A stretch of 64,000 nt of DNA from positions 26,474,001 through 26,538,000 of the forward strand of contig CM114271.1 of the NCBI GenBank assembly GCA_050084515.1. Reading direction: 5' to 3'. A model generated the notes under the pieces. That model saw nothing but the letters and a program-made list of their open reading frames with translations. It had not been told where the DNA came from and searched no databases. The stretch comes from Blasia pusilla. Its lineage: Eukaryota. Positions 4,592 through 43,859 of the stretch are shown here, in pieces. The stretch's first letter is position 1, and each line of letters opens with the position of its first letter. The position numbers were made by a program, and so were the translations under genes.

Positions 4592-6681
4592 TGTAGCGTA
4601 AACCTGGGCTCGCCACCCCACACCCATTTGGTAGCTCATACTAGACCCACTCAAGCGCACGCAGCCTATGCAGGCCGCACATGGGCTAGGCAAGGGCTCA
4701 TAGCTTGGACACCCATTCGATCCCTGCCGTGTCCTGCCACCCCCATACATGTTCCCATGTCTTGATCATATGTGGGCCACGAGGGTGCCAGAAAAAACCT
4801 ATCGGGTATGTCCGCCCCATGGATGGTCTTATTCGTTTCCATGCAAACTTGCTAGTAATCCTCAAGGTGTATCTCGAATGGTTCCTTAGCTCAAACATTG
4901 CCCAAACATGAAACATAGTCAGCTCCTTATTCCAAGCCTCCAACATGTATGAAGAGAGAAAGTCCCTCCCTCTAGATACTTATAGGGTCCTTGGTAGGAA
5001 AGTGGGGTTCCCACAAGAACTCCACTTTCCCAAACATCCATCCTAGCAAGATTGCATGTAGATGAAGTCCATGTCCATGGGCTTACATCTATTTCTTGCA
5101 ACCATGTACCCTAGGCCCTTTGTTGTGGTCCTCAACCCTAAATGTGGTTTGCATTTCACAAACCCATTTTTGACTAGGTAACCCCCAAGATGAGTTGGGG
5201 AGTCTCATGGAAGATTCTGCCATCTTTACTTCCCCAAAATCTCCTTGGAACCTCATTCGACATTTCATGTGTCTCATGGCTAACACATATCTTGACTCTC
5301 ATGATTTTCCATCTCATGTTTGTTTGAGGAACCTTTGTGTTTTGTCACTAGCCCAATGGTATTTCGCCCATCTTCAACTACTCTTGACTTCCTTGCTACC
5401 CGCCCTTAACTAAAATTTAGCTCAAGGGTCTTTCATCTATCTTACCTCATCCTCCTTCCCCATGAGTGGATACATCCCCTTTCTCCTAAGGCTAGTGTCA
5501 ATGTACATGCATATCTTAACTTGGGTTAGTCCCACGATATGCTTCATGGCCCACTCTAGTCTTGTGACTAGCTAGTCTAGGTTTTGAACTTGGTGGATCA
5601 TATCTAGGTCTTTCTTCCTTTGACTCATGATCATGACTTTCTTCTTGTCTCCCCATTAAAGTGAGCATCATTTTCTTGCGTCTACTCTCCTTGAACATCA
5701 ATCTTTAGTGTTGCATAAGCGTACATTCAGTAGGACACAGTCTCATTGTTGATCTGCACCCAAACACGCATTCATGTTAGTCGGGTCTGGATCAATCAGT
5801 GCTCCAACTTACCGAGCTCTTGACTCTGCCTCTCATCAAGCTCAACCTTTCTAGTTTCTCGCTTTATAACAACAGGAAGTCCTTCGAGACTTGGGATAAA
5901 ATTTCTGGTTGGTCTAGGGACCTCAAACTGCGCTTGCACGCCCGACGGTCCCATGTGTCCAATGGACCTCAAATAAATCCCTAATCGAGACTCACTAAAA
6001 TGAGTCATGGGTTGGAATCCAAGTGTGGCTTTTGAAATCCCCTCCCTCAAATGAGGCTTTGGTTCCGAATCCCAACACCAAACTCCCACTCTATTCCGAG
6101 CCCATGAGCCGTCCCATGGCACCCCAAAGTGGGGTTTGGGTCCCAAGCATCCTTGGAGACACTCCCCCTTACTACTACTTCCAGGGATCTCTGCCCTCCC
6201 ACTAACTTTGGGGAAAAGACAGACGGGCCCTTCTTTCTGGCCCTCAATCCAACTCTCGGTACAATCCATTTTGGGAAGTTTCTTAGCCTTTGCTTGTGGG
6301 TTTTCTAAGATCTTTGGTGCGTTAGAATTTTCTTTTCATAAGTTTTCCAACGCCACCTTACTTGTCCCAAACGCATCTTCGGATTGAACATTATGGTCTG
6401 AAACACATTCAAAACTCCAAACGCTAGTCGCATTCCAAATCCGGTTCTCACCTCTTTGGCGGCCAACCTTCCTAGACTAGACTCCTTTCAAGTCTTGGTT
6501 CACGTTTGGTCCAGGTTTCCTAATCATGATCATAAACGCATGAAACGCACAAACTCTATTCGTGCATTTTATCTTTTGCAACTATTCCACGAAATCTCTC
6601 CAAAGCGCAACCATCCTAACGTGAGCCCACTAAAGTTCTGATGTTTCACTTGGCGTTCGTTTGGTTATGAGGGTCGCGACA
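4592..6681. mobile_element. LTR-like sequence (probable solo LTR), degenerate
   Basis: Termini TGTAGCG...CGCGACA form a 6/7 inverted repeat with TG..CA ends. The last ~930 bp (from ~5745) align by eye with ~7955..8874. No TSD found; the left boundary is tentative. Confidence 0.5.
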
Positions 6682-7688
6682 GCCATAAACTCAATTTTTT
6701 GCAACATTGAATGGAAGTCTAGAATATTTGTTACAATTGCCCCTCGTTGTTGTTCACTAGCCTTTTCCAATCTATGCAAGTTTCCAATGTATGTTGTCTT
6801 TGTTATGAAAATTCTATTCAAAGAAATATGTTGAAATCATTTGTATAGTTCAGTCCATTATCCCAATTTCTCTATGAAATTGCTTTCTCTTCATCAAGAT
6901 TTGTATTGATCAACCAAGGATTCCAATTTCTATTAGAAAAAATATATTTTGAGATATCTTTACATATCAAGAGACTCCAAAACACATTTTCTCAACGTGT
7001 TCTATTTTTAAGTAACTTATAAAGGAAATATTGACTCATTATTTAATTATTTGGGGTCGTGTCATTTGGCAAAAAAAAGCTTTGCTTTAGAATTCTCTAG
7101 TGCAAATCAAAAATCTTTTGAGCTACATGGATTGCAATCTCAATTGCTCATACTCACACTCTTAGTACGAGGAGAGAATATCATTTGCTTGCCAAATATG
7201 ATTCAACCATATTGCACTTATCTTAGAATAAAAATCACTTGGTGGATCACTAGATCTCCTCATCCCTTTGCACCAAATTTCTTTTATTTTTTCTTGTTTT
7301 CTTTTGTGAGGGGGAGATGGAGAAGGATGCATATCGTTCAAAATCTCCAACAATTTTAGAATATTTAATGGCTATAATATAATTATCAATGACTGCAACA
7401 CATTAGTGTATATTTGCAAAATATCTCATATTTATGATTGTTACTCATCTGTTCTTGAAAATTCTTGCGCTTCTACATAGAATTGAGTGCAAGTTGTAAG
7501 CTTCAACAAAGAGTGTAATCATAACATTTTTAAAAATACCTCCAAATTTAGAATTTCTATTTTCCAAAATCAGAAGGTTTCCAAAAAATTGAGGTTTGTA
7601 AATAGTTCCCTTGAATTAAAGATAAACAGAATATATGAGTTGTCCGACTAGATAGGAGATAAGATGCACACATTTTAGAAAGGTCCAT

Positions 7689-8874
7689 TGTTCATAATAT
7701 ATGTTTTATGTATTGAAGATTGTGATATAGTCAAGTTCATCGGACACATGAATTTTTATATTTTAGTACTCACACAAAATAGAAACGCTTAATCTTGATT
7801 AATTAATTAAGCATGATTACTTTAGCTATGGTTAGTTGACCATGGTTAGGAATAGGGTTAAGGTTAAGGTTGAACACGTACAAAATCCATGTTCGACCCT
7901 AGAACAGATATGTCTGTGAGGGCTCAGGTTCATGCATCTGAGCTTGCACTCGTAACATTGATCTGGACTCGGCAAGCCTGCACGCACTTAGTCAGGTATG
8001 GGCCAACCAGCATTCCAACCCACCGAGTTCTCAACTTGGCGTCTCATCAAGCTCAACCTTCCTTAATTCCTAGTTTCCAAAATATGGCAAGTCCTTCAAG
8101 ACTTGGAACAGACTTCCTGATTAGTCCAGGAACCTAAAACGGCACTTGCGCGCCTAGCGATCCCAACTGTTCGACGGACCTCGTGCGAGTTCCAAACTGA
8201 GACCCAAGTAATTGAGTCGCGGGGTGAAATCCAAGAGGGATGTCTAAAATTGCCTCCGTAGACTTGGTTCAGGTTTTCCAACCCAACCCCAAACTCTCGA
8301 TCCGTTCCATGCCCTTGAGCCGCCGCATGGCGCCCAAAGTGGGTTCCGAGTTCCAAGCACTCTCGGAGACCTTCCCCCTTTCTAGTACTTCTAGGGTTCT
8401 CCAATAACCCCCCTTTTGGAAAAGGAGGGTTGGGCCCTTCATTGTGGCCCTCAACCCAACTCTACTTACAGTCGTTTCCGGGTTTTTTTCTCAGCCGCTC
8501 CTTATGCGTTTGTAGAGATCTTTAGTGCGTTTGAATCAAATTTCCATAAGCCTTCCAACGCACCCTTGTTTAATCCAAACGCATCTTGGAGCTAAAATTT
8601 ATGGTTATAAATACAGTCGGAAACTCTCAAACGCTAGTGGCGTTCCAAATCCGGATTCCTTCCTTTGGCAACCCACTTTCTAGACTTGACTCCTTTCAAG
8701 TCTTATTCCGCATTTGGTATAGGTTTCTCGGTCGTGAACACAACATCTGGAACGCGAAGCCTCGCTTGCGTCTCGTCTCTTGTCTCTTCTTCGAGACTAC
8801 TCCAACGCGCAAACCATCTTAGCGTGAGCCCGCTAGTGTTCCGCTTTGGCACTCGTTTGGTCATGAGGGTCACA
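7689..8874. mobile_element. LTR-like sequence of a family different from the downstream Gypsy 3' LTR
   Basis: TG...CA bounded. The right part is homologous to 5745..6681 (tctcatcaagctcaacctt, gactcctttcaagtctt, tttggtYatgagggtc). The left part (~7712..7865) is homologous to the reverse complement of ~29245..29410 (attgaaga.., aagttcatcgg, tactcacac, gcttaatcttg). Confidence 0.55.
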
Positions 8875-8885
8875 GTAGTAGTGGA

Positions 8886-10090
8886 GTGACACGGAGAGGA
8901 GTGAGATACCAAGGAGTTATGAGTGAGGAGCTACCTCGACATCTATCTGTGGCTGGATCGTCATCATTAGACACTGGGTCTGGTGACGAGGTGGCAGACG
9001 GAGGCAGTATCACTTGGCAGGAGATGGACGACATGAGCCATCGAGGCATGCGTCGTTTCTCGAGTGTTGTGGGCACCATTGACTTAGATGATTTTATCCA
9101 GGAGTTTGACACGTGGTGCGACTTCCAGGAGATACGGGCCCCGACACGGTTCAACCCTTTCATGGCATGGAAGGGGTTGTTCCAGCACTTGGAGGGTCCT
9201 CCGATGGATGACTACATGGAGTTTCGATCACTATATTCAGTAGAGATCGATGCCTGGAGGATGTATTGGGCTCCAAGGTATGTATCCACTAGTGATCGCG
9301 AGGCATATGATGGGATCGTGAGAGGAGAGAGACCCATACCATTAGCCCAGAGACTAGATGGAGAGGAGGGCAGTAAGACAGACAACGTGACAGAGACCTC
9401 TGGTGGTAGAGGGCCACCCAGCTTCAGCCCCACAGTGGAGTTCTTCCGACAGTTGGGGAAGAGCTACCAGGGCGTACGCACCAACAAGCTCAAGAGTCTA
9501 CAGGATTTTCAGCGACAATTGGGTTAGAGTCCGAGAGAGGCATTCACACGCATGAGGAGGCTGATCATTGCTACGTATGGAGTGACTGAGGCACAATCAA
9601 TCTAGTATTGGTACAGGGTTCTAGACCGAGAACTACGGAGGAGAGTCCGAGATGCGGTGCTGATTCATACAGCGAAGCCCACATTGAAGGTGGTCTTTGA
9701 GCTTTCTCAGCGTATTGAGCTCAACATGAGTGAGGATCAGGTAGTGACCGCTGGATTTTCTCGAGAGTCGACGGGTCCACGAGCGATGATGACCCCACAC
9801 GTGCCACAGCGAGCACCAATACCACGGGAGCGGGCCAGTGTGCCCAGAGAGCAGGGCGGGTACCGTGAACCTATGAGGCAACGACCCGTACCTACAAATG
9901 TTGCCCACCAGAGACCGATGTTATCTTGTTGGACATGTGGAGGGGCCCATAGGTAGAGAGACTCCACACAGCATGGGAGAGGACCACGGCGCCTCCGATT
10001 GCTCAGGAGCCCCAGAGGATGGCCCCACCACAGTACCAGTGGGACTATTGCCACATATATGGTCACACTAGGGATAGATGTTATGACCTT
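8886..10090 (+). pseudogene. Gag-like protein with two degenerate CCHC zinc knuckles
   Basis: ORF pieces 8886..9527, 9657..9956 and 10019 onward. DLDDFIQEFDTWC capsid-like segment; CWTCGGAH and (W)DYCHIYGHTRDRC knuckles followed by an RGG-rich tract. Confidence 0.75.
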
Positions 10091-10662
10091 CGTCAAGAGG
10101 CACGTCCAGAGGTAGGACGAGGGCCTGGGGGCGGTCGTGCTGGAGGAGGTCGGGGAGTTCTTCCTGGACGTGGTGGTAGAGGACCACCACCACCCAGAGG
10201 AGATAGAGCAGGAGCACCAGAGCCAACACTTCTCTCATGCATCGATCAGTTGGAGCAGAGGATTACTGCCATGACGATGATGCAACTCAGGGAAGGCACG
10301 GAGCCGCGAGCAGCTAGTGTGGCTCCAGCTTCTACCTCTTACCCTGACCCGGGTGAGGATCTCGCATGTATGGGGTTTATGTGTAGTGCAGCCCAGGTTG
10401 AGACAACTGCAGTGGTGACTCGGAGTGCTACGAGAGGCATTGAGCCATCGAGAGGTGGAGTTGAGATTGACCCACCAGAGGGGAACAATGGGCGGCAGGC
10501 CAGGGTTCCACAGTCATTCATATTGTTGGAGGCACTACACACACCATCGATGGTGCCTCGGCAACCAGAAGTGCCTACAGCTCAGGAAGGTACGTGGACG
10601 TCACGAGGAGTTGGAGTGACAACTCCTATGCCGGCTCGAGTGGAGTCAATGTCGACCATAGT

Positions 10663-10869
10663 GTTGGAGGTGGCCACCAGAGTGAGTCAGACTCCACTAT
10701 TTTCCGCCATAGAGTTGGCGACGTTGGGAGTTGGAGGTGGCCAACAGAGTGAGTCAGACTCCACTATTTTCCGCCATAGAGTTGGCGACGTTGGGAGTTG
10801 GAGGTGGCCACCAGAGTGAGTCAGACTCCACTATTTTCCGCCATAGAGTTGGCGACGTTGGGAGTTGGA
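10663..10869 (+). repeat. Tandem repeat, 3 x 67 bp plus 6 bp
   Basis: Unit gttggaggtggccaccagagtgagtcagactccactattttccgccatagagttggcgacgttggga at 10663, 10730 and 10797, with one substitution among the copies. Confidence 0.97.
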
Positions 10870-11089
10870 CCAGTTGAGGTGTTCTGGTTGGCCGCCAAGT
10901 TATGTGAGCGTGGAGAGATGACTGCTTCTTGTTCAAAGGTAGTTGAGGAGGTGGTGGCTTGCCCTCACAGCCGTTGCTCGGGACGTCCCCCACAGAGTCA
11001 TGGCATGCGGCGGCGGTGAAGTTCGTAGATATACTAGCTCGACCGACCATAGAGCTAGCGGTGGTGACACTTGGAGTAGTGTTACTGGA

Positions 11090-11480
11090 TAACCGAGCTA
11101 GAGTATTTTGCTTGGTTAGTCCCACAGGGAAAGTTCACCACCCGCAACGCGTCCTACTTGATTCAGGAGCGTAACCCTCGATCTTAGGGAAGGCGGCGTG
11201 TTGAGCGTTGGGGTTACAGAAGGCCGACATTGAGCCTTGTCCCTTCCACATACAGACCTCGATTGGGGGCGTGTCATCCAAACAATATATGACCCGACAG
11301 GAGATAGTTGTCAAAGTCCAGCCAGAGCATGCGACGGATAGTTCTATGGTGCGCACACGTGCGATTACGACACCAGATGAGTCATACGATATGTTGGTGG
11401 GGAGTACAGTGTTCTATCCCCTAGGATTCATCCTTGACTTTTGGGAGGAGATTGTTGCTTATCGGCCAGGGTGGTGGTGA
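11090..11480 (+). pseudogene. Retropepsin-like aspartic protease domain
   Basis: RVLLDSGA catalytic motif (~11148..11171) and a downstream YDMLVG flap/helix-like segment; internal stops. Confidence 0.85.
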
Positions 11481-11885
11481 GGTGACAGGCGGATGAGTCA
11501 GTTACCTGTGCGGTTTGCGGGACAAGATGGTCGATCACGAGGCGATTTTGTGACCACGTTGGCAACTTTCACAGGTAGTGTTAGCTAGCTAGGAGAGTTG
11601 TTGGAGGGGAACGCACATGCGGAGGATGTCCCAATAGCAGATAGTCCCACGGAGAGACAAGCCATGGCGGGTGTCTCTTCCCATGTTGGCAAGACCTCTT
11701 CACCATTGTGGGATACGAGACAAGAGCTATAGAGGAGTGCCAACGACCTCGTGAGGCAGGCGTGGAGTCATGCCTTTATCCCAGAGCAGCAAGAGTCAGG
11801 TGGCGATCGGGCTCTTGGAGTGGAGAGATTGACCCCACTGGATACCACACCCGTTGTGTGGTAGTGTCCAGAGGAGGGTGGTAGG

Positions 11886-12842
11886 GTGTTAGATCTCTTT
11901 GGAGGGATTAGCACTGGATTGGTTGCAATATTGCAGGCGGGCATACGAGTGCATACGTACTTTTATGTGGAGAGAGATGAGACCGCACGGCGAGTATCAT
12001 TACGTCATGTGGCGAGATTGGTCCAAAGGTATTATGAGTTGTTGTCGGTATCTGCAGTTCGGGGATATCAACATACACTACCCGCCGACATCTCTTTGGT
12101 GGGGGCGCAGGATCTGGATAGAGTTGGCACCATTCATTTGGTGATTACAGGATGGCCATGTTAGGGTCATTCATCAGCTTGCCGAGGATTTGGATTGCAG
12201 GATCCGAGATCAGGGATATTTTGGGAGATGTTGCGAGTAGTACGACACTTGCAAGAGAGTCAGACATGTTCTCTAGCGTACATTTTGGAGAACATGCCGT
12301 TGTTGGGAGACATTCGTGCACGTGTGATGACGAGTGTGCATCAGGTGAGGTCCTGGTTGGGACCTGTTGTGTTGCTAGATGCAGCGAGTGTTGGATCACG
12401 TGCCCACCATCCACGACTATGGTGGACAAACCTGATACCATCAGAGGTACTGAGTCGAGCATATGATGGAGTCCAGAGAGCACCACATGTCACAGTGGAT
12501 GCTATTTTGGGCTCAGGGCGTTGATCTTAGGTGGTGACGCGGGATGATAGACCACCGTTGGCGATGGCCAATAGGGTGGGGGAGTTGAGGGCAGCCTTAT
12601 CTACGTTGGTGACCTTCCCAGCATCCCATGCCTTTTGTCAGGGAGGGCCAAGCATGATTTGGGATGAGGTGACCCGAGCATTAGAGGAGCCTACAGTAGA
12701 TGAGCGCAAGCGCGCCATGGGGTTTGTTATGGGTACTACGGCGGTGCCAGGTATGATTGAGTCATCATGGAGACAAGTGTTGGGGCAAGCAATGGACCTC
12801 AACTGTCTTACATGGATAGTCAACCTAGGTATGGCTGAGTAG
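11886..12842 (+). pseudogene. DNMT3-like C5 cytosine DNA methyltransferase domain embedded in the retrotransposon Pol frame
   Basis: One frame with three stops (TAG 12162, TGA 12522, TAG 12528). Motif I VLDLFGGISTG (DNMT3A VLSLFDGIATG); motif II YVE; motif IV LVITGWPC*G with the catalytic Cys; motif VI YILENM; motif VIII LDAASVGSRAHHPRLWWTNL (IDAKEVSAAHRARYFWGNL); motifs IX/X DERKRAMGF..TTAVPGMIESSWRQVLGQAMD ([28 protein letters not shown]). Confidence 0.92.
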
Positions 12843-13239
12843 AGACGGATGTGAGTGTCATCCATGTCGTCACGTCCACGAGTTGGACCATTGCCTACAG
12901 GGTCTGTACAGGCATTGGCTGGGGACGGGACGAGGAGAGATAGGCATCCATGGACTTCCTAGGATGTCGTTTGAGCAGAGAGTGCAAAGGCGGCCACAGT
13001 AGCACGTGTCATTTTTTGGATATGGACCATGGTGTAGGAGGTCAGAGTGGAGTGGCTGTTGCGGAGGTGGCAAGGGTTGCTACATAGCAACCAAAGTCGG
13101 AGGTTGCGTCCTCTCCGAGTGAGGTCACGATGGAGACTTGGGAGCCTGTGATAGGTTGCAAGTTGATAGGAGGAGAGCGACGGCGAGTTCATAGGTTTCT
13201 GAGAGGGGGCATGTCAGTTGTTTTTCCTTCAGTATGAGA

Positions 13240-14040
13240 GACTTGGGTACGCTGAAGGGTCCCGAGATACGAATTGAGTTGGCTAGTGATACGTGAATCT
13301 TTTGTCGACCCTACAGGTATTCTGATATGGAGCGAGCCTTGATTCAGAGCAGGAGTCATAACTTGTTGGAGGCAGGAATTGTGGAGTTATCACATGAGGA
13401 GTATGCATCTGCCACAGTCATGACGGAAAAGAAGGATATGTATGGCAATTGGATGGATAGGCGGATGTGTGGAGAACACCGTCCTATCAAGCGACATACG
13501 AGGTCAGATCGATACGCCATGCCTACTCCTGAGGAGATCTTTGATGCGGCAGGGCATGCAAAGATCTTCAGTACTTTAGATCTTCGTGTTGGCTATCATC
13601 AACTTCCTATCACCTTGGAGGACAGGGAGAAGACAACATTCTGGGGGATAGATTGGTTCGGGAGAGATTGCTTGTATTAGTGGCCGTTCTTACCTTTTGG
13701 GTTGAAAAACGCGCCTGCAAAGTTTCAGAGAGTGATGGATAGGATTCTGGCTGGCTTAGATTTTGTATGATGTTACATAGATGACATTCTTATCTTCAGT
13801 TCCACGGTTGAGGAGCATGAGCGACACCTGGAGGAGGTGTTTTGGCAAATGCAATTACATAGACTGAAGTTACATATAGGCAAGTGTAGATTCTTTCAAG
13901 AGCAGATTGAGTACTTGGGACACATCATATACCTGAGTGGGTTAGGCGTTCAGCAGACGAAGATGGAGGGTATTGCGCAGATTCCATGCCCTACAGATGT
14001 GAGTAGAGTTCGAGGGTTTTTAGGACTGTAAAACTTCTAT
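13240..14040 (+). pseudogene. Ty3/Gypsy reverse transcriptase
   Basis: RPYRYS, DRYAMPTPEEIFD, FSTLDLRVGYHQL, LPFGLKNAP, YIDD (13774..13785), KCRFFQEQIEYLGH, VRGFLGL. Confidence 0.97.
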
Positions 14041-14199
14041 CGACGGTATGTCAAGGATTTTAGTGCGATTGCAAAGTCTTTGATCTTGTTGACGAGACTT
14101 GATCAGGTTTGGTTGTGGGGAGATGATCAGGAGCGAGCATTTCAGGAGCTCAAGGACATCTTGACATCCTCACCCATTTTATAGAGACCGGTTAGGGTT

Positions 14200-14565
14200 G
14201 CCCATTCCACCTACATACGGATTGGAGCATGTTGGGTCTAGGAGCAGTGCTTACTCAGAGGGATGACGAGGAGAGGGAGTATGTTGTGGCTTACGCGAGC
14301 CGATTGAACAACATTGTAGAGGCAAAGTACAGCTCCTACAAGGGAGAGTGCTTGGCTGTAGTGTGGGTTGTGGCATATTTCAGGTGCTATTTATTCGGAA
14401 ACCCTTTCACACTTATCACTGATCATCAGCCGTTGAGGTGGTTGATGGAGTCCGACAAGCTTACGTGAAAGCTTGCCATATGGGCTATTTTACTACAGGA
14501 GTATGAGTTTGAGGTGGTTCATAGGACAGGCCGGCTGAACCAGGATGCGGATGGGTTGAGTCGTA
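14200..14565 (+). pseudogene. RNase H domain
   Basis: HTDWSMLGLGAVLTQ, VAYASR, YSSYKGECLAVVW, TDHQPLRWL, NQDADGLSR. Confidence 0.95.
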
Positions 14566-14939
14566 ACCCATGTCCGAGTTAGAGAGATGATACAAGAGCT
14601 CGATGGCATGGAGAGAGTGATGAGGAGATGGTGCCCGGTTGGCATGCATCTGCCTATCTTTGTTGGTTGACTATGGTAGGTCACCATTGGTGATGACTCC
14701 AGTGGTGGGGTTGGATGATGAGTCTTTGGATGCGGAGGTCAATGAGGAGGCGACAGGTAGTCGTGATATCCATGACGACGTGGAGGTTGTGGAGTTTTTG
14801 CGCATTGGCGTCATAGCGAGCACAATGAGTGCTAGGGAGCGAGATCGGATCCTACAACGACCCAGGAGGTTCACGTGGGAGGGGATTCACATTTTGCGGG
14901 TATGGGGAGATGGTAGGATACGAGTGGTACCTCATCCTT

Positions 14940-15990
14940 CTCAGTGAGCACGTGTAGTGCGACATGCCCATGAGGAGTTGGGACATTTGGAGTAAAGCGT
15001 ACTTACAACTTACTCCAGATTCAGTATTAGTGGCGTGGCATGCATACTGGGGTACAGCAGTTTGTCGCAAGATGTATGGTATGTGACAGAGTGCGAGTAT
15101 CCTTCAATGCTCCCACTCTGCAGTTACATCCTTTGTCGATTATGGGTTCAGGTTATTGGTGGATTTTAGACTTTGCGAGACCTTTGCCATTGACGGGGCG
15201 TCATCACCGGTACGTGTTGGTCATGGTGGAGCATTTCTCCAAGTGGATAGAGTTGGTGGCACTATCGGACAAGGCGAGCGAGGGAAAAACCTATGCATTT
15301 CCAGATTGTGTGCTTAGTCACTTTGGTGAACTGGCGGAGGTGTTGACTGACCAGGGTACCGAGTTCAGGGAAGAGTTTCAGGCCTTGTATGATTAGGCGC
15401 TGATAGATCACCACACCACGTCCAGAGATCATCGTGAGGCGGATGGGTTGGCGGAGAGAGTAGTACAAACGGTGAAGAGAGGATTGCGCAAGTATGGCTT
15501 GCAGCGAGGACAATTGAGGGAGTGGGACCTATAGTTGTCATGGTTGGCTATGGGTTATCGCTTTAGTCGGAAGGCATGCTTGGTGTCATTTTCACCATAG
15601 TTTTCCTCTTTGGGAGAGAGTCAGATTTACCTATAGCTATTCAAGATGACATGGCGGAGGTGTTAGATCTTGATGATCCAGATATGTGGGTACAAGCGTG
15701 TTCTCAAAGGGCGGAGATTTTTCGTAGAGTTATGCCTAAGGCCTTTGAGAACTTAGCTATTGCTCAACAAAGAGATATATTGAGGTACGCGACCATTCGT
15801 GGAGGAGGTTATCGTCCATGGATTAGGAAGTTTCATCTTGGAGATTACGTGTATTTATAGCAGGCGGCACCCACGACGCTAGATGTCACTGCAGGGCGCA
15901 CGATCCTATGTGTGCACGAGGTATTACCAACAAGAGTCCTCATGTTGGAGGGACCGGATGGTATGGTTTGGAAGGATCATGTGGGAAATT
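14940..15990 (+). pseudogene. Integrase (HHCC zinc finger plus DDE core)
   Basis: AHEELGH...CMVCDR; ILDFAR, LTDQGTEF, GLAERVVQTVK; stops and frameshifts present. Confidence 0.95.
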
Positions 15991-16065
15991 GTGCACCATG
16001 TCATCTTTCGAACATAGACGGGGACAGTGGATCTGAGCTTCGCAGTGGTACCTGCAGGCTTGAGG

Positions 16066-16212
16066 TGTATGTTGTGCCGATCTACGAGGGATGCAGCCAC
16101 CATGTTAGTATGTGATGGTTTTTCTCGAGGGTGGCATATGTCATGTCTGAACGCCCCCCTCCTCCTCGATGTAGTTCCCACAAGATGATGGATGTGTCCA
16201 AGATGTGTATAG
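16066..16212 (+). pseudogene. PHD finger at the Pol C-terminus
   Basis: CMLCRSTRDAATMLVCDGFSRGWHMSCLNAPLLLDVVPTR*WMCPRCV*: C4HC3 spacing, with the fourth Cys changed to Phe (TTT) and one internal stop. Confidence 0.88.
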
Positions 16213-16279
16213 GGTAGTAGGTCATGTCAGAGAGATGTGATATTTTCTATCTGGAGTTGGGGGGATCCAACTGCCAACT

Positions 16280-16289
16280 AGGGGGGCGG
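16280..16289 (+). promoter_or_regulatory. Polypurine tract of the Gypsy element
   Basis: agggggg(c)gg lies about 70 nt after the pol stop and just upstream of TGT at 16291. Confidence 0.7.
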
Positions 16290-16428
16290 TTGTGTGATCT
16301 CCATGTATATGTATGAGTTGATTTTTGTACATGTGTGGATCGACCCGTGTGTGGGGAAGATCGATGTCGTGTGGTGTAGATGTGACCAGCGATGCATGTT
16401 GTGTAGCGATACGTATGCGCACAACAAC

Positions 16429-17042
16429 TGTCACATTTGAGTAGCCGATAGGCTGAGATCGTGGATAGGGCGTAGGAGCCAGTGGACTATCTTGAGTGTA
16501 ACTTTTTCCCACGGTGTCGGATGAGGTTGAGTATAAGTCCATTATGTCAGGAACGTTGTTTTTGATAACTTTCTTGTTGAGGTCTTTCACAACCGGGTGA
16601 CTTGTTGACCAGGTCAACCGCCCCTGGTAGCCTGTGTGCGTAGGTTACCAAGGAGATGGCTATTTTTAGGGTAAGAGCCTTTTGGCTCTTCCCAACCCTG
16701 TATAAGAGAGGAAGATGGATTTCCTAAGCCATCTTTCTCATGTTGGGCCGTTAGAGCACCTCTCTTGTATGTGTGTGAGATAGGACTAGGGTGCTAGCGT
16801 CCGGATTCCTTGATAGCGCAAGGTGGACGATGCTCGATATGCCAATGTAGATTGAGGAGTGGAGATTTAGGCCGGGTGTGTCATTTTTACTACTCTTTAT
16901 TTTTGTTGTGTGATCTCCATATATATGTATGAGGTTATTTTTGTACATGTGTGGATCGACCCGTGTGTGAGGAAGATTGGTGTTGTGTGGTGTAGATGTG
17001 ACCAGCAATGTATCTTGTGTAGCGATATGTATGCGCACGACA
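16429..17042 (+). repeat. 614-bp 3' LTR of the DNMT-Gypsy element, preceded by a 136-bp copy of its own 3' end (16291..16426)
   Basis: TGTC...GACA terminal inverted repeat; TATAAG at ~16701. Segments 16291..16426 and 16907..17042 differ at 12 of 136 positions with no gaps. Confidence 0.7.
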
Positions 17043-18057
17043 CCGATCAAATTAATGGTGCTCAAAGAAGTGGATGTTGAGAATCCAGCAATTGTAAGAA
17101 CAAGACTCAAGGCAAAAAAATGTGTCTTGTTGTTGAACTCGCTATATGCGTAGAAGAATAAAATTTGATCTAAACATGTCTTTGGTGAACTAGGAACTTA
17201 GAGCAAGTATTCGATTGTGCTAGGGAATAGAACTTGAGAACTAGGAAAACAAGTAAAAAATATTTTATAAGAAATTAAGTGTGTAGGAAAGAATATGAGA
17301 ATTGATTCGACTATGAGATAAATCCATGGGGATCTTGTGTAAAGAAGCACAAGGTATCTCTTTGAGAAAGCGATGCTAGAGCTGGTTGGGAATTAGGATA
17401 ATAGGATCTAGATGGGTCATTTTTAAAAGTAGGAGGGAATGCTGCATAAGACACCAAAACCAATAATTGTTGAGGATCCAAAGGCATTGTGTGTAAAATT
17501 AGCACCAAATATCTCTTTGAGTGGGATATTCTAAAACTAGTAAATCCGAGGGGATACAACGTGGTAAATAGCTCTAGCTAGATGTGTTCTTGGATATTGG
17601 AAATTGGAACTTTTGGCTATTAAAGATGGAGTTGGATCTTGTGATAGTTGAGTTTAGATGGTGTTTAAAAGAAAAAAGGCATAGGAGTTGTGGGCCATTA
17701 GAATATGGCAAAGTCTCAAAAGAGTAACACAAGATATATCAATAAAGGAGTAGACAGCAAATCAAATGGTTGTAAAAACTCTAGAAGAGTATTATCTTAA
17801 CTATCTTCGCATAAGCTCAAGTTCTTAGGAGACGTCGCAATGATATCGTAGGATCTTAAGGATGTAGTGTCATACAACCTACCAACTCAACACCATATGC
17901 TTGCCAAGTTGGATTATGGGACCAAATCACATGCAATACTTAGGAGAAATAACCAAGCCAAGACAAGGGAGCATAATCGAGGATGTGCCTCATAAGTTGT
18001 ACTAGTCATGGATATTGTGTGGCAGATGAAGAGAGTTGAAGATGTATTGTGTGGTTG

Positions 18058-18760
18058 AATTTCAAGATTTAGTACATTTTGGTTATTCAATAAGTGTTAT
18101 GCTTGAAAAAATATAACATAGCTGATGGAAAATGAATGCAAATACTTGTGATGAAAAAATTCATGAGAAAATTTTGGAAAATAGGAAAATAAGAATAAAT
18201 TATTTATTGTGAAGAGTGAAAATTTCAAAAATATCAAAGAATATGGAACACTTGTATAAAAGTTGACTTATGTAGTGGCTAATATTATTGATGGCATTTT
18301 TTCAATTTGGTGATGAAGAAATTATTTAAAAATGAACAACAAAGTATTTTTAACCATTGAAAGAGGGGGCACTCCTTGACTATGGATCCAACGATATTTG
18401 TGTGAGTGAATGATTGGATAAGTTTATGATTTAATTTCAAGATTTAGTATGGTGTGTTCAGTTGATAAGTGTTGTGCTTGACAAAACATGAGAGACATGA
18501 TGGAAAATGGATACAAATATTTATTATAACAAAAAATCATGAGAAAATTTTGTAAGATGGGAAAATAAGAAGGAATTATTTGTAGTGAAGAATGAAAAAA
18601 ATTAGAAAATAGAAAAAAACATGGAATTCTCCTATAAAAACTAAATTATGTAAAGGCTGTTATTTTTATGGTATTAAATTATTTTTTTAGAAATAAAAAA
18701 TCATATGATGAATAAATTAATTAAAAAATCTAGCAAAGTTTTTTTACCTTTGAAAGAATG
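18058..18760 (+). repeat. Old tandem duplication, ~375-bp period, AT-rich
   Basis: aatttcaagatttagta..ataagtgtt..tgatggaaaatg..tcatgagaaaattttg..gaaaataagaa occurs at ~18058 and ~18433. Confidence 0.8.
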
Positions 18761-19269
18761 ACACACTACCTCTCATTCCCCAAAAACCCTGGGGTATGTC
18801 CACCCTAGGTATAAAAGTGAATAACATAAATGCCCTCATCGTTGCATTTAATGCATAGATTGGGCATTCTTGTTCTAGCATCACCTTTTTTTTCAAAGAT
18901 AAAACGTGTTCTTAACTTCTTACCAAATAAGTAGTAGAATCCTTCAATAATGTTTAGATGAACAATGGAACCATGGTGTTTGCATGGTGTGAGCATGCAA
19001 ACACCATGTGCATATAGCTTCACTTTTGGCTCTTATTCAACATAATTTTTAATCCCTCTTTTTTGTTGTGAAGTTTCTCAAAGATGCATTGAATGCATCA
19101 ATGAGGGGAAGTATTTTCTTAGATATACACAACCCCACATATTTGATGTCAATTTGAAATCAATCCCCATTGGACGCCATACAAGTCACTCACTTTTAAT
19201 GGCATTGTAATTTTTAAGCAATTGTAATATTGACTCATATAAGAAGGAAATAAATGACATGAGTAAAGG

Positions 19270-19700
19270 AAGATGGGGAAAATTATCAAAAGAACAAGGA
19301 GGGACTCCAAAATTCTAGAATCACCAAGGCCACCCTTGACCACGAGCAAAAAAAGAGAGGAGAAACCCCTTAAAATTTGACCTCATCTATAGCATAAACA
19401 ATACTAACAACATCTAAAGAAACATGACTACCAATAAGAGGGCTTCTAGTGATCGCGTTTTCCACAACTTGAGTCTCTTTCATGAGCCCATTGGTTTGTG
19501 CACCTTGTTGGGTGATAGAGACTCGTTGTCTCCAATATAACAACCCATTAGCTAAAGATAACCTATTTCTCAAGTGGAGAAGATGAGCACACTAAGGAAA
19601 GCATCAAACCTCTCGTCCATATTCCCATGCATCTCAATGGCCAATGGAACAAAGCGATGTCCTTTGTGAATATGACTCAAAGCCAAGTCTTCTTATTGTT
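19270..19700 (-). mobile_element. Old 3' fragment of a CRE-like RLE non-LTR retrotransposon
   Basis: The minus strand translates GHRFVPLAIEMHGNMDERFDAFLS, matching GHIFIPTAIEMYGAMG at ~24560..24600. The 3' region (gggactc.aaa, atgactac.a.taag, .ctag) also matches 24240..24390. Confidence 0.7.
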
Positions 19701-22700
19701 TAGAGGGTCCAATAAAACCCTCTCACACAAAACGTAAATGTTTTTCGAAGATCCTAGAAGTGTGCATGTTCAACAACTTTCAAAGATGGACGCGTTGTTG
19801 GAGTGGGTCTTAAGTGGGAACTCTTACAAAAAATCAAAAGTGAAGATGCAAATATTTTCATGGAAACCACTGGAAATACCATCCCATCATTTTCCACGAC
19901 CATTATTCATGCATGGACCTTAGGCCGAAGATGGCCTAGTAATGTAATGCATTACCTCCCTCAAGTTTCTTGGAGGATGACCTATCCCCCCATGACAAAG
20001 ATTTAAAGATAGATGATATGACACTAAAAACTCTATAGGACCATAACTTCAAGGAAAGGGGCCGGAAGAACTAATCATGGTACAAAAGGGAGAACTGAAA
20101 AAACTCTTTATTCAAAACTCCAATAGAGGAAAACATCATTTTAATTATAATTATGGAGCACCACTAAATATTCTCTATCGACTATATTATTCGAAGAGAG
20201 TTTTTCAAATGGCAACAACTGAGTATTCACCGTATGTCATTTAAAGCTTGTATTGCGAGTGGCATAACCAGACGTTGGGGTCCCTAACTAGAATATAAAA
20301 TTCGAATATCAGTTTTTGAGATAACTTGGAGACCCTGTAAATTAATTATACTAAAAAAACTTTAATAAAAAAACGACTACCTAATAGAAAAGACCTTTAT
20401 CTATGACCTCTCCCACGTCTTGACCGCGGGCACGCCAAATATGGAAAGGAAGGGGACGATTCCATATCTCTTTTGGGGGGTGCGCTTTTGTGTAAGGGGG
20501 CGATTGAGTTGGACTTAATGTTGTCTTCCTCGAATGCAACTAAAGCGAACTGTCTAATTTTCGTAGATGCACTTTCATATTAATTAGAACGACATTAAGA
20601 GTAGGCTAGCACTTAATAATCCTCCCTTCTAATTGGCCGTTGCTTTCCTTTCTTTCCTAGGGCACATGAGCACGTGAATATTTAATTAAGGTTCCATGAC
20701 TTTTGGATCCTAGTGTTGTTTTATTGGAATATACATCCAAAGCACTATGTGGGCATCTTCAAGCGATGCTATATTCCATATTGATTAGAACGGTCTTAAG
20801 ACTAGGCTTGCTCTTAATCGTCACGTCTAATTGGCTGTTTCTGAAGACGCCTGAGGAGAGGGACAACTACTATATTACCATTGCCAAGGTAGGAAGAAAC
20901 TAATGGTGTAAGCACGAGTGGGTGAATGGGGACAAAAGAAGGCTCTCGTTGAAAGGTTTAATTAATAATAAAAAACAGTTGGAATTAACAGATTAGCTCC
21001 AATACTTTGCATGGATAAGATGCCTCCTTTTTAGGCAGAGGAAGCTATTATTTAATTTAATTATGGAGCCGTAGAACGCCTTAATCGTCTGGAAAATTCA
21101 CAGAAGAGAGTTAAAGGGAATACAGAATTAGCGACGTAAATGCATTATTTAATCTTTGGAACAAAACTCGTGAGTGGTCATGCTTATACTATTCCGGTCA
21201 GCTTAGGAAAGAGCGCCGGAATATTGTAAGTTCCCGACACTAATTAGTAGCCAACAAGAGTATCATTTCTTCTCATGCCCGATTATTTGGGTAGACAATC
21301 ATATAATTAATATTTAAAAAAAAGATTTAAATGAGATGGGATCTAGAACTGACTTCACATTCTCTATGACTATTATTTTAAAATAGTCAAAATGTGGTTA
21401 AATAATTCAAAATAATAATAATGATTTAATCCCCAGATGTGTACTTCCCGCTATTATGTTATAAATCCACTGTATATAAGTGTAAACACTATTCGCTGTG
21501 ATTTGTTTACGAAATAGAATAATGATAATGGTAAATAAGAAGCATTTAATTTTTTAAGGTGTGGCCAATGGCTGACGACTTATTTTCCTAATTGCGCGTC
21601 ATGATTATTTTAAATAATTACGAGTCCAAAAATAAGCAAGCTATTAATTTGTTCTGTGGCCAATTGGGACTACTATTGCTACTGATGCATCATGATTTGA
21701 TGCGAAAATACGAATAGAAAATTCATTAATGGCGCGAGAAATTATTATTATTAGTCAATCTTTGCTCCTATGACAACTTGTAGCGTCACAACGTCTTATT
21801 TCATTTATATAAGGAGTGTTAGTACGAATCGTGGAAAAAAACCCATCCACTTGTAGTGTAGAGTATTTATTATTTGTCGAAATGCTATATATAATTTTTT
21901 AATAGGATTCCAAGGAGCCTTTCAATTAAATACATCTAACATTGGTCTAAATTATTTTGAACAGGTGATTAATAAATATAATTAAAAGAGAATGTGTTTG
22001 ATTGAAGAGAATAAATTAATTATCCGGGCCAAGGATTTGACGGATGCCTATAACGGAAAGCTAGAACTTTTTCCCATCATCAGAATAGAGTTGTCCAAGC
22101 AAAAACACATGCCAAGAAATATTCACACGTGCATAGCACATGCATCATGCTAGTACTTAATAAGATAGTCCCGAATGGATTTGCACGAGTGGATCTTATT
22201 ACATGTATCACTTGTGAATTTTGTTTAACATTCAATCGTGATGTTTGACACTTGAATAAAGCATGTTTTATGACCTTATACACTCTTTCATTGAAAATTT
22301 AAAAATTTGGTTACCATGCCCATGCTTGAAACATTTTTTTTAATATTTAAATAAAAATTTGAAAACTTTAAATCTTAGAGGAATGATAATATTCCACTCT
22401 TTTAAATAACTACTCGAATAAAATTTAAATAATAATCCACTCTTCTAAATAATTACACCCTTCCATAAACTTTTTAAAAATACGTATTGTTCCCCTTCCA
22501 CTCCTCCCACCAAAATAACAGATATTAATTAAATTGTTACTTTATCTTCATTGATGAAATCATTTCTCTCTTTTATTCAAATTCATTTTTTTCCCTTCCC
22601 AAATATAAGTGTGAATTAAGAAAAAAAAATTGAAAGCTTCTTACTATCTTGTCTTTATATATATAAAAATTAAATTGTAAAACATGCTTTATTTTAATGT

Positions 22701-43593: not shown

Positions 43594-43859
43594 GCTATAG
43601 TCTTCTTCTTACGTCCGCAGTTCAACCAAAGAAGTTGTCTCCTTCCTTTAAGATAATTCCTCGGCCTTGTCAACCTCTTCCTCTTCTCATTGGAATCCAA
43701 TATTCCCTACATACTTCTGCTCTTCAAACCTGCTTCCTCTTTATTAATATAAAATTTTCAACAACACTTCTTCTTCACTTTTCTTTTTACGACAACAACT
43801 ATCCTATTCTAACTCAAAATCCTATTTTTGCAAAAAAGTCAGAAAAACAAGTATTACAG

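What the first reader, a model, noticed from the sequence alone, without database searches (positions are those of the whole stretch)
11886..12842. Ty3/Gypsy retrotransposon carrying its own DNMT3-like cytosine methyltransferase inside Pol
Seen: a full C5-MTase catalytic domain (motifs I, II, IV with PC, VI with EN, VIII, IX, X, in DNMT3 order and wording) sits between the aspartic protease and RT. It is intronless and in the same frame as the protease (10959, 11208, 11886, 12195 and 12531 are one frame); only three stops interrupt it. The frame to RT appears to be lost only at homopolymers (~13012..13017 T6 and ~13205..13209 G5). Known: DNMT-bearing retrotransposons were reported in dinoflagellates and in the charophyte alga Klebsormidium (de Mendoza et al. 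2018, Nat Commun); standard plant Gypsy elements lack this domain. Inference: this is a land-plant member of such a lineage. The MTase would be a polyprotein product packaged in the particle and could methylate new cDNA or the insertion site. I cannot tell from the sequence whether this family is already described in this host.
Basis: partly seen in the sequence, partly recalled or inferred. Interest (0 to 1): 0.93.

Follow-up and report, generated by a model that had tools for sequence, protein, structure and literature searches.

The report
Liverwort Gypsy retrotransposon carrying a DNMT3-like methyltransferase
This is a dead copy of an abundant liverwort Ty3/Gypsy retrotransposon whose polyprotein includes a DNMT3-type cytosine methyltransferase, a kind of element so far described in print only from a charophyte alga and dinoflagellates.

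Summary
Window 11865-12971 (+) encodes a non-permuted C5-MTase domain, in the protease frame and upstream of RT. PF00145 scores 23.2 bits against a cut-off of 22. The best sequence and fold matches are DNMT3A/B.

It is not a nested host retrocopy. All 20 relatives other than P0022 are collinear with further parts of the element: 15 Marchantia polymorpha gene models, Calypogeia, Sphagnum and three unnamed. In the host's own reads the MTase segment is as deep as its neighbours, about 350-850 times the flanks. A flanking LRR-kinase gene places the host among liverworts.

This copy is dead, with 24 stops and several frameshifts. Related copies give sense-strand RNA in 3 of 3 RNA runs.

The family belongs to a large green-lineage clade: 342 clusters at E<=1e-30. 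It has two domain orders, PR-DNMT-RT-RH-INT-PHD in named streptophytes and RT-RH-DNMT-INT-PHD in named chlorophytes. The DNMT tree and the RT tree each separate the two orders by a single branch.

A Klebsormidium gag-PR-DNMT protein is a distant relative. That links the family to the published KnitGypsy-Dnmt3.

I found no paper describing the land-plant members. What the enzyme does is inferred, not shown. The element's ends are unresolved.

The parts
7988..8822 (+). 5' non-coding leader; the repeated unit starts about here
   Evidence: Genomic depth jumps from about 12 (bin 7338-8004) to about 620 (bin 8005-8671), and joints 5770>7988 and 5788>8001 are seen. 70% identical to 5777-6675.
8832..9974 (+). 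gag (capsid-like part), frame 3, 3 stops in 9024-9974
   Evidence: tblastn of Marchantia, Sphagnum and unnamed relatives, 40-54% identity; stop count.
10043..10732 (+). gag C-terminal / nucleocapsid-like region, frame 2
   Evidence: tblastn at 31-43% identity. Relatives carry zf-CCHC here. In the window only a weak zinc-finger hit.
10663..10869 (+). 67-nt unit repeated three times in tandem at the gag-PR junction
   Evidence: 99-100% identity. 52 genomic reads skip 134 nt here, so other copies hold fewer units.
10983..11504 (+). aspartic protease (LLDSGA at 11154-11171), frame 3
   Evidence: Weak Pfam gag-asp_proteas / RVP_2 hits. tblastn to relatives and to the Klebsormidium protein P0228, E 7.5e-12. 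Motif place.
11865..12971 (+). DNMT3-like C5 cytosine methyltransferase domain, same frame as PR; stops at 12162, 12522, 12528, 12840
   Evidence: PF00145; DNMT3A best in PDB; 53-70% identical to the 20 relatives other than P0022; model of a relative has the DNMT3 fold.
13204..14196 (+). reverse transcriptase (YIDD at 13774-13785), frame 1, 5 stops
   Evidence: RVT_1 at E 7.9e-27; tblastn at 58-71%.
14196..14669 (+). RNase H, frame 3, 2 stops
   Evidence: tblastn to P0010 and P0016 at 68-71%, which carry RT_RNaseH.
14986..15507 (+). integrase: H2C2 zinc-binding domain and catalytic core
   Evidence: Integrase_H2C2 at E 8e-8 and rve at E 6.4e-10; tblastn to Sphagnum P0020 at 69%.
16066..16206 (+). 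PHD finger at the C-terminal end of integrase, degenerate here (one stop inside)
   Evidence: PF00628 at E 9.2e-8. Same position in relatives P0202, P0051, P0077, P0070, P0106, P0052, P0030. Best PDB matches are PHD fingers of MLL3, PHF12, CHD4, DPF3.
16210..17042 (+). 3' non-coding tail with a 149-nt direct repeat (16289-16437 and 16905-17053, 89%); most copies end at 17042
   Evidence: 1058 loose ends behind 17042 with diverse continuations (agreement 0.37), and depth 0 from 17343.

Best explanation
Window ~7988-17042 (+) is one decayed copy of a high-copy Ty3/Gypsy retrotransposon family of a liverwort. Its single gag-pol reading frame, as seen intact in relatives, runs gag(CCHC)-PR-DNMT-RT-RNaseH-INT-PHD. 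The DNMT module is a non-permuted DNMT3-type C5 cytosine methyltransferase. It has been inherited with the element's RT for a long time and keeps its catalytic residues, so intact copies most likely make an active enzyme as part of Pol.

The most likely working (inferred, not shown) has three steps. The protease releases the MTase together with, or next to, RT. The MTase methylates the element's newly made cDNA or the fresh insertion. The integrase's C-terminal PHD finger steers integration by reading histone H3 tails, as the chromodomain does in chromoviruses.

Shown here: the domain, its place in Pol, its presence in all relatives and in hundreds of copies, its DNMT3-like sequence and fold, sense-strand RNA from related copies, and the decay of this copy.

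Inferred: catalytic activity, substrate, timing, and any benefit to the element.
For: Domain and place.

Integral to the family. Of the 21 relatives found with the window's MTase, all 20 other than P0022 are collinear with further parts of the element; these are 15 Marchantia polymorpha models, 1 Calypogeia fissa, 1 Sphagnum fallax and 3 unnamed. P0022 matches only the MTase. P0010 and P0016 carry DNMT+RVT_1+RNaseH in one protein. P0202 and P0033 are long single ORFs with PR-DNMT-RT-RH-INT.

Genomic reads of the same species label: flanks about 1, element bins 354-843, MTase bins 468-722 against PR 354 and RT 673-843.

DNMT3 type. The profile of 7 sequences hits DNMT3A at 8.8e-16, DNMT3C/3B at about 1e-13, tobacco DRM at 1.4e-7, M.HaeIII at 7.5e-6, DRM2 at 4.9e-5; DNMT1 is not listed at E<=0.01. 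The AlphaFold model of the Calypogeia domain has pLDDT 95.8. The listed Foldseek rows, ranks 1-48, are all DNMT3A/B/C entries. VIA-align gives DNMT3B Z 28.8 (rmsd 2.7, 278 aligned), DNMT3A 27.5, M.MpeI 25.6, M.HhaI 22.1, DNMT1 19.3, DRM2 9.7 over 134 residues.

Conservation. Across 37 sequences at 31-77% identity, C111 (the PC cysteine), E154 (of ENV), D184, R194, N201, T259 and E294 never vary.

Co-inheritance. The DNMT tree has 15 rows of PR-DNMT-RT order and 115 of RT-RH-DNMT-INT order, separated by one change, SH-like 99. The RT-RH tree has 9 against 74 rows on one branch, SH-like 99.

RNA. In 3 of 3 RNA runs reads lie on the sense strand at depth 1-20 over the element. The neighbouring minus-strand LRR gene shows the opposite orientation.

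Precedent, from passages read: de Mendoza et al. 2018 (PMC5890265) showed de novo CG methylation in yeast by a DIRS-borne Dnmt3 of Symbiodinium and proposed cDNA self-methylation.
Against: This copy cannot make the enzyme. There are 12 stops in the PR-DNMT frame (10983-12971) and 24 in all homologous frames. ENV reads ENM, and a stop follows the PC dipeptide.

No activity has been shown for any Gypsy-borne Dnmt3. The K. nitens domain gave no methylation in yeast, which the authors call inconclusive.

No tree with host DNMT3, DRM, CMT and MET1 was built, so 'DNMT3 clade' rests on best matches only.

M.MpeI, a bacterial CpG MTase, scores only about 3 Z units below DNMT3B.

No LTR pair, PBS or target-site duplication was found in this copy, so the element's class rests on its Pol.

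The RNA reads are mostly 90-95% alike to the window (650 of 1036 in X19). They come from other copies whose intactness I did not establish.
Confidence: 0.85

Rival explanations
1. A one-off event: a host DNMT3 mRNA retrocopy, or a piece of a host gene, landed inside one Gypsy copy, and the in-frame position is chance.
For: Host DNMT3 genes exist in liverworts: MpDNMT3b = Mp5g09290 (passages read). The domain lacks introns, as a retrocopy would.
Against: The same gag-PR-DNMT(-RT-RH-INT) order appears in 15 Marchantia models, Calypogeia, Sphagnum and unnamed relatives. Depth over the MTase equals that of PR and RT, at hundreds of times the flanks. The DNMT and RT trees agree.
Confidence: 0.02
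2. The module is part of the element but does not methylate DNA. It could be a DNMT3L-like scaffold, a SAM-binding regulator, or an RNA methyltransferase acting on the element's RNA, as de Mendoza et al. suggested for the LINE-borne DNMT.
For: The K. nitens Gypsy Dnmt3 domain gave no DNA methylation in yeast. DNMT2-type tRNA methyltransferases share the fold at Z 21-22.
Against: The catalytic Cys, the ENV Glu and the motif VIII Arg never vary across 37 diverse members, unlike a degenerate DNMT3L-type scaffold. Sequence and fold are closer to DNMT3A/B than to DNMT2 or DNMT3L: Z 28.8 against 21-22 against 11; E 8.8e-16 against 1.9e-4 for DNMT2.
Confidence: 0.1
3. The liverwort sequences are domesticated host genes derived from such an element, and the window holds a pseudogene of one.
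For: Marchantia copies are annotated as genes, one of them as DNA (cytosine-5)-methyltransferase.
Against: There are several hundred copies at 90% identity or more in the host's reads, spanning gag to the 3' tail as one unit. Many paralogous Marchantia models carry gag, PR, RT and RH. This copy is decayed and has no conserved neighbourhood.
Confidence: 0.03

Closest known systems
KnitGypsy-Dnmt3 of Klebsormidium nitens (de Mendoza et al. 2018, PMC5890265; passages read)
   Same: Both are Ty3/Gypsy elements with a non-permuted, intronless Dnmt3-type domain inside the Pol ORF. A K. nitens protein (KFL_008410050, P0228) shows gag, then PR, then the start of a DNMT domain in that order. Its PR matches the window's PR at E 7.5e-12.
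   Different: The host here is a land plant. The only K. nitens model retrieved is distant: E 9.2e-9, 30% identity over 26% of the domain. I cannot show that P0228 is one of the published copies. The paper's text has no mention of a PHD finger or of liverworts: 0 hits for 'PHD', 'Marchantia' and 'liverwort'. Its Fig. 4c legend says the repeats are DIRS-like; here the ends are unresolved.
Chlorophyte RT-RH-DNMT-INT-PHD Gypsy elements (gene models of Scenedesmus sp. PABB004 'pol', Haematococcus lacustris, Cymbomonas tetramitiformis, and many unnamed metagenome proteins)
   Same: The MTase is homologous (31-42% identity, E 1e-116 to 1e-162 to the family profile), and so are RT, RNase H, integrase and the C-terminal PHD finger.
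   Different: The MTase sits between RNase H and integrase, not between protease and RT. These elements form one clade apart from the window's group in both the DNMT and RT trees.
SymbioDIRS-Dnmt3 and SymbioLINE-DNMT of dinoflagellates (PMC5890265)
   Same: They are retrotransposon-borne C5-MTases. A DIRS-borne one methylates CG de novo in yeast.
   Different: They belong to other retrotransposon classes (tyrosine-recombinase DIRS, LINE) and were independent acquisitions according to the authors.
EpiLTRs of Cymbomonas and Euglena (bioRxiv 10.64898/2026.05.21.726589; passages read)
   Same: They are LTR elements carrying DNA-methylation and chromatin-reader modules.
   Different: They carry a Dam-like adenine MTase, a DNMT sister to DNMT4 and a chromodomain. 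No Dam or chromodomain was found in the window.
Host DNMT3A/3B (animals) and plant DNMT3
   Same: They are the best sequence and fold matches, with the same motif order I to X.
   Different: There is no PWWP or ADD domain next to the catalytic domain. The domain is embedded in a retroelement polyprotein and present in hundreds of copies.
Chromoviruses (Gypsy elements with an integrase chromodomain)
   Same: A histone-reader module sits at the integrase C-terminus.
   Different: PHD fingers in green-algal transposons have been noted before (passages in PMC8557442 and PMC6673714).

Membership tests
Ty3/Gypsy LTR retrotransposon | Pol domain order PR-RT-RNaseH-INT | tested here: met
   PR 10983-11504, RT 13204-14196, RH 14196-14669, INT 14986-15507, with the MTase inserted between PR and RT.
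Ty3/Gypsy LTR retrotransposon | Pair of long terminal repeats with TG..CA ends, PBS, PPT, target-site duplication | tested here: inconclusive
   No direct repeat links the 5' 880 nt to the 3' 830 nt on either strand. End bins are not deeper than inner bins. This may be a fault of this old copy or a non-canonical end structure. PBS, PPT and target-site duplication were not searched for systematically.
C5 cytosine methyltransferase (Pfam PF00145) | Score above Pfam's gathering cut-off | tested here: met
   23.2 bits against 22 for the decayed window copy. 29-46 bits for relatives. P0007, P0106 and P0052 gave no Pfam PF00145 hit, although P0007 matched the window's MTase and P0106 and P0052 matched the family profile.
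C5 cytosine methyltransferase (Pfam PF00145) | Catalytic PC dipeptide, ENV glutamate, motif VIII arginines, in the order I-IV-VI-VIII-IX-X | tested here: met
   The order is seen in the window. Cys, Glu and Arg never vary in 37 relatives. In the window ENV reads ENM and a stop follows PC.
DNMT3 clade | Closest sequence and structure relatives are DNMT3 catalytic domains; not permuted as in DRM | tested here: met
DNMT3 clade | Falls inside DNMT3 in a tree with DNMT1/MET1, CMT, DRM, DNMT2, DNMT4/5/6 and bacterial MTases | not tested
   No host DNMT sequences could be obtained. The best 150 of 6303 hits were all family members.
DNMT3 clade | PWWP and/or ADD reader domains N-terminal of the catalytic domain (animal DNMT3A/B) | tested here: not met
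   No such Pfam hit in the window or in relatives. Per PMC12344493 (passage) some DNMT3s lack identifiable companion domains, so this does not define the clade.
Streptophyte Gypsy-DNMT3 (KnitGypsy-Dnmt3) | Dnmt3-type domain within the Pol ORF of a Gypsy element | tested here: met
Streptophyte Gypsy-DNMT3 (KnitGypsy-Dnmt3) | Homology to K. nitens copies beyond the MTase | tested here: met
   P0228 PR matches window 10968-11474 at E 7.5e-12 and gag matches relatives. This rests on one K. nitens model only, and its identity with the published copies is not shown.
Streptophyte Gypsy-DNMT3 (KnitGypsy-Dnmt3) | Purifying selection on the MTase among copies (Ka/Ks below 0.2 in the paper) | not tested
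   No DNA of other copies was available. Invariant catalytic residues are only a proxy.
Streptophyte Gypsy-DNMT3 (KnitGypsy-Dnmt3) | DIRS-like arrangement of terminal repeats (legend of Fig. 4c) | tested here: inconclusive
   A 149-nt direct repeat flanks a 467-nt stretch at the 3' end, but no matching 5' repeat was found.

The most novel reading that the evidence does not exclude
DNMT-plus-PHD Gypsy elements may be an old lineage shared by the green plants and algae, one that has carried its own de novo methyltransferase since before chlorophytes and streptophytes split and moved the module once within Pol. On this reading the lineage is still transcribed, and possibly mobile, in liverworts, including the genetic model Marchantia polymorpha. 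A land plant's methylome would then be written in part by transposon-encoded enzymes that pre-methylate their own new insertions.
Probability: 0.25. Interest if true: 0.8.

Novelty: new member of a known kind. Interest (0 to 1): 0.6.

Why it matters
Cytosine methylation is the main way plants silence transposons, so a transposon that carries a de novo methyltransferase runs against expectation. In print it is known for one charophyte alga and for dinoflagellates.

One opinion paper (PMC6338049, passage read) states that methylase-encoding transposons are not present in land plants such as tracheophytes.

Here the family is found in liverworts and a moss. The host holds hundreds of copies with sense RNA, and Marchantia polymorpha has many long open gene models.

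That moves an open question into a tractable land-plant model with mutants and chromatin maps. The question is what a retroelement-borne DNMT3 does; the K. nitens enzyme gave an inconclusive result in yeast.

Genome annotators should also know that some 'DNA (cytosine-5)-methyltransferase' gene models in bryophytes are transposon Pol fragments.

Tried and rejected

As a result, ends, target-site duplications, Ka/Ks and insertion ages could not be studied.

3. Viral contigs: the 80 loci kept match at 21-43% identity. RT, RNase H, integrase and PHD profiles hit none of them, and the MTase profile hit 76. They are ordinary viral C5-MTases, not this family.

4. LTR search: self-comparisons found no terminal repeat pair. 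Two loose-end strings from the read lay were not found in the window.

5. A tree with host DNMT3, DRM, CMT and MET1 was not possible. The 150 listed hits of the profile search were all family members, and no host sequences could be brought in.

6. P0225 (Haematococcus) looked like a chlorophyte with PR-DNMT order. Its MTase is 97% identical to that of P0191, which has the RT-RH-DNMT order, so I treat it as a gene-model artefact.

7. The look-up of sequencing runs: no RNA holder is listed among the indexed runs.

8. Literature: searches found no paper describing these elements in liverworts, mosses or chlorophytes. The terms included DNMT3, Marchantia, liverwort, bryophyte, Gypsy-DNMT3, six Marchantia gene ids, MpDNMT3 and PF00145. 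Subscription papers and all supplements were out of reach.

9. The reading of the PHD finger as a reader of unmethylated H3K4 rests on my recall of what its best PDB matches bind. It was not tested.
Full report
OBSERVATION

Frame 3 of window 11787-12848 reads a complete, non-permuted C5 cytosine-methyltransferase domain (motif numbers are my recalled labels):
- motif I LDLFGGISTGL, 11889-11921
- motif IV ITGWPC*G, 12144-12167
- motif VI YILENM, 12279-12296
- motif VIII GSRAHHPRLWWTN, 12393-12431
- motif IX DERKRAMGF, 12699-12725
- motif X QVLGQAMDLN, 12774-12803

With X at the stops it passes Pfam's cut-off for PF00145 (23.2 bits against 22, E 5.6e-5). Its best matches among solved structures are DNMT3A catalytic domains (E 7.6e-6).

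In-frame stops lie at 11862, 12162, 12522, 12528 and 12840. The protease upstream is in the same frame. The frame then steps 3 to 2 to 1 before RT, at or near a T6 run (13012-13017) and a G5 run (13205-13209).

ANATOMY OF THE ELEMENT

Homology to relatives and Pfam hits give the following layout on the + strand:
- gag: 8832-9974
- nucleocapsid-like region: 10043-10732
- protease: 10983-11504 (LLDSGA at 11154)
- MTase: 11865-12971
- RT: 13204-14196 (YIDD at 13774)
- RNase H: 14196-14669
- integrase zinc-binding domain and core: 14986-15507
- PHD finger at the integrase C-terminus: 16066-16206 (PF00628, E 9.2e-8)

A 67-nt unit is repeated three times at the gag-PR junction, 10663-10869.

The copy is dead. 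It has 24 stops in the homologous frames: gag 3, NC 0, PR-DNMT 12, RT 5, RH 2, INT 2. It also has several frame changes.

NOT A ONE-OFF INSERTION

A search with the window's MTase among longer proteins gave 21 hits: 15 Marchantia polymorpha gene models, one of Calypogeia fissa (67% identity), one of Sphagnum fallax and four unnamed.

In tblastn, the 20 hits other than P0022 are collinear with further parts of the element. The patterns are gag-NC-PR-DNMT, DNMT-RT-RH, or gag..DNMT..RT..INT. P0022 matches only the MTase. P0010 and P0016 hold PF00145, RVT_1 and RNase H in one protein.

I laid raw reads of one DNA run and three RNA runs with the same coded species label on window 1-20000 at 90% likeness or more. 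Genomic depth is about 1 in the flanks and 354-843 per bin from 8005 to 17342. The MTase bins (468, 722, 644) are as deep as PR (354) and RT (673-843).

The unit, MTase included, is therefore present several hundred times. This is a rough figure, because only about 1 in 100 of the run was read. Most reads are 90-95% alike (43017 of 47402), so this copy is an old or outlying member.

HOST

The partial gene at 2-1876 (-) is an LRR receptor-kinase ectodomain. Its best relatives are Marchantia paleacea (78%), Calypogeia fissa (76%) and Riccia fluitans and R. sorocarpa (68% and 64%). Everything else is at 50% or less. The host is a liverwort distinct from these species. I did not try to name it.

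WHAT KIND OF MTASE

A profile of seven family members hits the following in the PDB:
- DNMT3A: 8.8e-16
- DNMT3C and DNMT3B: about 1e-13
- tobacco DRM: 1.4e-7
- M.HaeIII: 7.5e-6
- Arabidopsis DRM2: 4.9e-5
- DNMT1: not listed at E<=0.01

An AlphaFold model of the Calypogeia domain, built on a 37-row alignment, has mean pLDDT 95.8. The listed Foldseek rows (ranks 1-48) are all DNMT3A/B/C entries, the best at E 9.4e-20.

An all-against-representatives structural search gives these Z-scores:
- DNMT3B: 28.8 (rmsd 2.7, 278 residues aligned)
- DNMT3A: 27.5
- M.MpeI: 25.6
- M.HhaI: 22.1
- DNMT2: 21-22
- DNMT1: 19.3
- ZMET2: 18.5
- MET1: 17.4
- DRM2: 9.7, over 134 residues only, as expected for a permuted enzyme

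Across 37 family members at 31-77% identity, the PC cysteine, the ENV glutamate and a motif VIII arginine never vary.

THE WIDER FAMILY

The seven-sequence profile, run against 1.84 billion cluster representatives, found 6303 proteins at E<=1e-3, 1600 at E<=1e-10 and 342 at E<=1e-30. The 150 listed all score 2.7e-52 or better, and many are polyproteins of 1000-3456 residues.

Pfam shows two domain orders:
- The window's order, CCHC-PR-DNMT-RT-RH-INT, with a terminal PHD finger in P0202 (P0033, P0202).
- RT-RH-DNMT-INT-PHD, in P0051, P0077, P0070 and P0030. P0106 and P0052 show the same order but have no Pfam PF00145 hit; their MTase is seen only by the family profile.

With local profiles, 40 of the 184 proteins then held showed the full second order and 82 showed the MTase alone.

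In a FastTree of 207 MTase domains, I left out proteins with under 250 profile positions matched, except P0020. The tree holds 15 rows of the first order and 115 of the second, and they need one change. P0022, a non-Gypsy RVT-DNMT-Dam protein, served as outgroup and was excluded from that count. The second order forms one clade of 143 tips (SH-like 99) with none of the first order inside. The first tree, of 157 rows, agrees.

For the RT-RNase H tree I kept only proteins with RT, RH and MTase hits and near-full RT. Of its 83 rows, 9 of the first order and 74 of the second sit on either side of one branch (SH-like 99). The MTase has therefore travelled with its RT, and its place in Pol changed once.

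Named members of the first order are all streptophytes: Marchantia, Calypogeia, Sphagnum and Klebsormidium. Named members of the second are all chlorophytes: Scenedesmus, Haematococcus and Cymbomonas. Only seven named genera back this pattern.

LINK TO WHAT IS PUBLISHED

De Mendoza et al. 2018 (PMC5890265; passages read) describe intronless Dnmt3 domains in the Pol ORF of a Gypsy element of K. nitens, with Ka/Ks below 0.2. In yeast, a DIRS-borne Symbiodinium Dnmt3 gave de novo CG methylation, and the K. nitens domain gave an inconclusive negative. The text does not mention Marchantia or liverworts (0 occurrences).

The 37-row profile retrieved one K. nitens protein, KFL_008410050 (E 9.2e-9). 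It has gag, a protease matching the window's protease (E 7.5e-12), and the first part of a DNMT domain at its C-terminal end. That is the window's domain order.

Other papers, of which I read passages only:
- A 2026 preprint speaks of 'streptophytes (Gypsy-DNMT3)'.
- A 2019 opinion paper says methylase-encoding transposons are not present in land plants such as tracheophytes.

Nine searches found no description of the bryophyte or chlorophyte members. Supplements and subscription papers could not be seen.

STATE OF THE FAMILY IN THE HOST

Six places where 42-68% of the genomic reads carry an indel difference (9988, 10957, 13008, 13205, 14194, 14683) lie at or near the window copy's frame changes. 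Those breaks are therefore largely private to this copy or to a minority.

Where the window differs from the reads, it has A for their G at 232 places and T for their C at 201. The reverse changes number 66 and 84. This excess of C-to-T and G-to-A changes on both strands is what deamination of methylated cytosine would leave (inference).

In all three RNA runs, reads over the element lie almost only in the orientation opposite to that of the minus-strand LRR gene, so the RNA is sense-strand. Depth is 1-6 over gag to MTase and 8-20 over RT to integrase, against 9-19 for the LRR gene. With hundreds of templates the output per copy is low. Whether any transcribed copy is intact was not established.

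ENDS: UNRESOLVED

Depth puts the unit from about 7988-8005 to 17042-17342. There are 1058 loose ends behind 17042 with diverse continuations.

The 5' 880 nt and the 3' 830 nt share nothing on either strand, and the end bins are not deeper than the inner bins.

The 3' tail holds a 149-nt direct repeat (16289-16437 and 16905-17053, 89%) around a 467-nt stretch. Behind 16904, 455 reads continue with a consistent sequence that the window lacks.

The stretch 5337-6675 is a relative of the 5' region at about 30 copies.

The legend of Fig. 4c in de Mendoza et al. says the K. nitens element has DIRS-like repeats. Whether this family does too needs young full-length copies.

HOW IT MOST LIKELY WORKS

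Shown: the MTase is made as part of Pol, between protease and RT. It is conserved at its catalytic residues and is co-inherited with RT. A PHD finger ends the integrase.

Inferred: after cleavage by the protease the enzyme is present where cDNA is made. It methylates the new cDNA or the fresh insertion, as de Mendoza et al. proposed for DIRS elements.

The window's PHD finger is most like those of MLL3, PHF12, CHD4, DPF3, KDM5B, PHF21A, AIRE and UHRF1. By my recall most of these read unmethylated H3K4 or the unmodified H3 tail. If so, it could steer integration away from active promoters, as chromodomains steer chromoviruses.

I give about 0.85 to the anatomical and evolutionary reading, and about 0.35 to self-methylation of new copies as the function.

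VERDICT

This is a new, land-plant member of a published kind, not a new kind.

The added value lies in four points: the liverwort and moss distribution, the copy number and RNA in the host, the partnership with a PHD finger, and the large sister group in chlorophytes with another domain order. Interest 0.6.

Noticed in passing
window 2-2668 (-): Partial LRR receptor-like kinase gene. The ectodomain has LRRNT_2 and many LRRs, and its best non-liverwort hits are named MIK1/PXL-like. It is expressed at depth 5-19 in 3 of 3 RNA runs and serves as the single-copy control and host marker.
   Followed up: partly
window 5337-6675: A relative of the element's 5' region, present at about 30 copies; 5777-6675 is 70% identical to 7988-8871. 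It lies 2.2 kb upstream with no coding part. Some reads join 5788 directly to 8001.
   Followed up: partly
window 10663-10869: A 67-nt unit repeated three times at the gag-protease junction. Because 67 is not a multiple of 3, each extra unit shifts the frame. 52 genomic reads skip two units.
   Followed up: partly
window 24000-28500, e.g. 25818-26474 (-): A second G+C-rich block (about 54% GC) holds an ORF with an RVT_1 hit (E 2.9e-8) on the minus strand. It is another retroelement, unrelated to the MTase family by tblastn.
   Followed up: no
window 8005-17342 against reads of X18: Directional excess of transitions. The window has A or T where the family's reads have G or C at 433 places, against 150 places the other way. 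This fits deamination of methylated cytosines in this copy.
   Followed up: no
window 16009-17342 and 8005-8671: RNA reads lie in both orientations over the 3' tail, and mostly antisense, at low depth, over the 5' leader. The coding part is read almost only in sense.
   Followed up: no
protein P0022 (ENA, 1417 aa): An unnamed metagenome protein with RVT_1, then a C5-MTase (29% identical to the window's), then a Dam-like adenine MTase. It resembles the dual-methylase retroelements of the 2026 preprint.
   Followed up: no
Marchantia polymorpha gene models (P0004, P0005, P0007, P0016, P0018 and others): Public annotations name some of these transposon Pol fragments as CCHC-type domain proteins or DNA (cytosine-5)-methyltransferase. 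They are distinct from the host gene MpDNMT3b (Mp5g09290).
   Followed up: partly
window 43854-44333, 51687-51956, 62654-63065, 18052-18757: Short local direct repeats (73-84% identity) lie in the A+T-rich remainder of the window.
   Followed up: no
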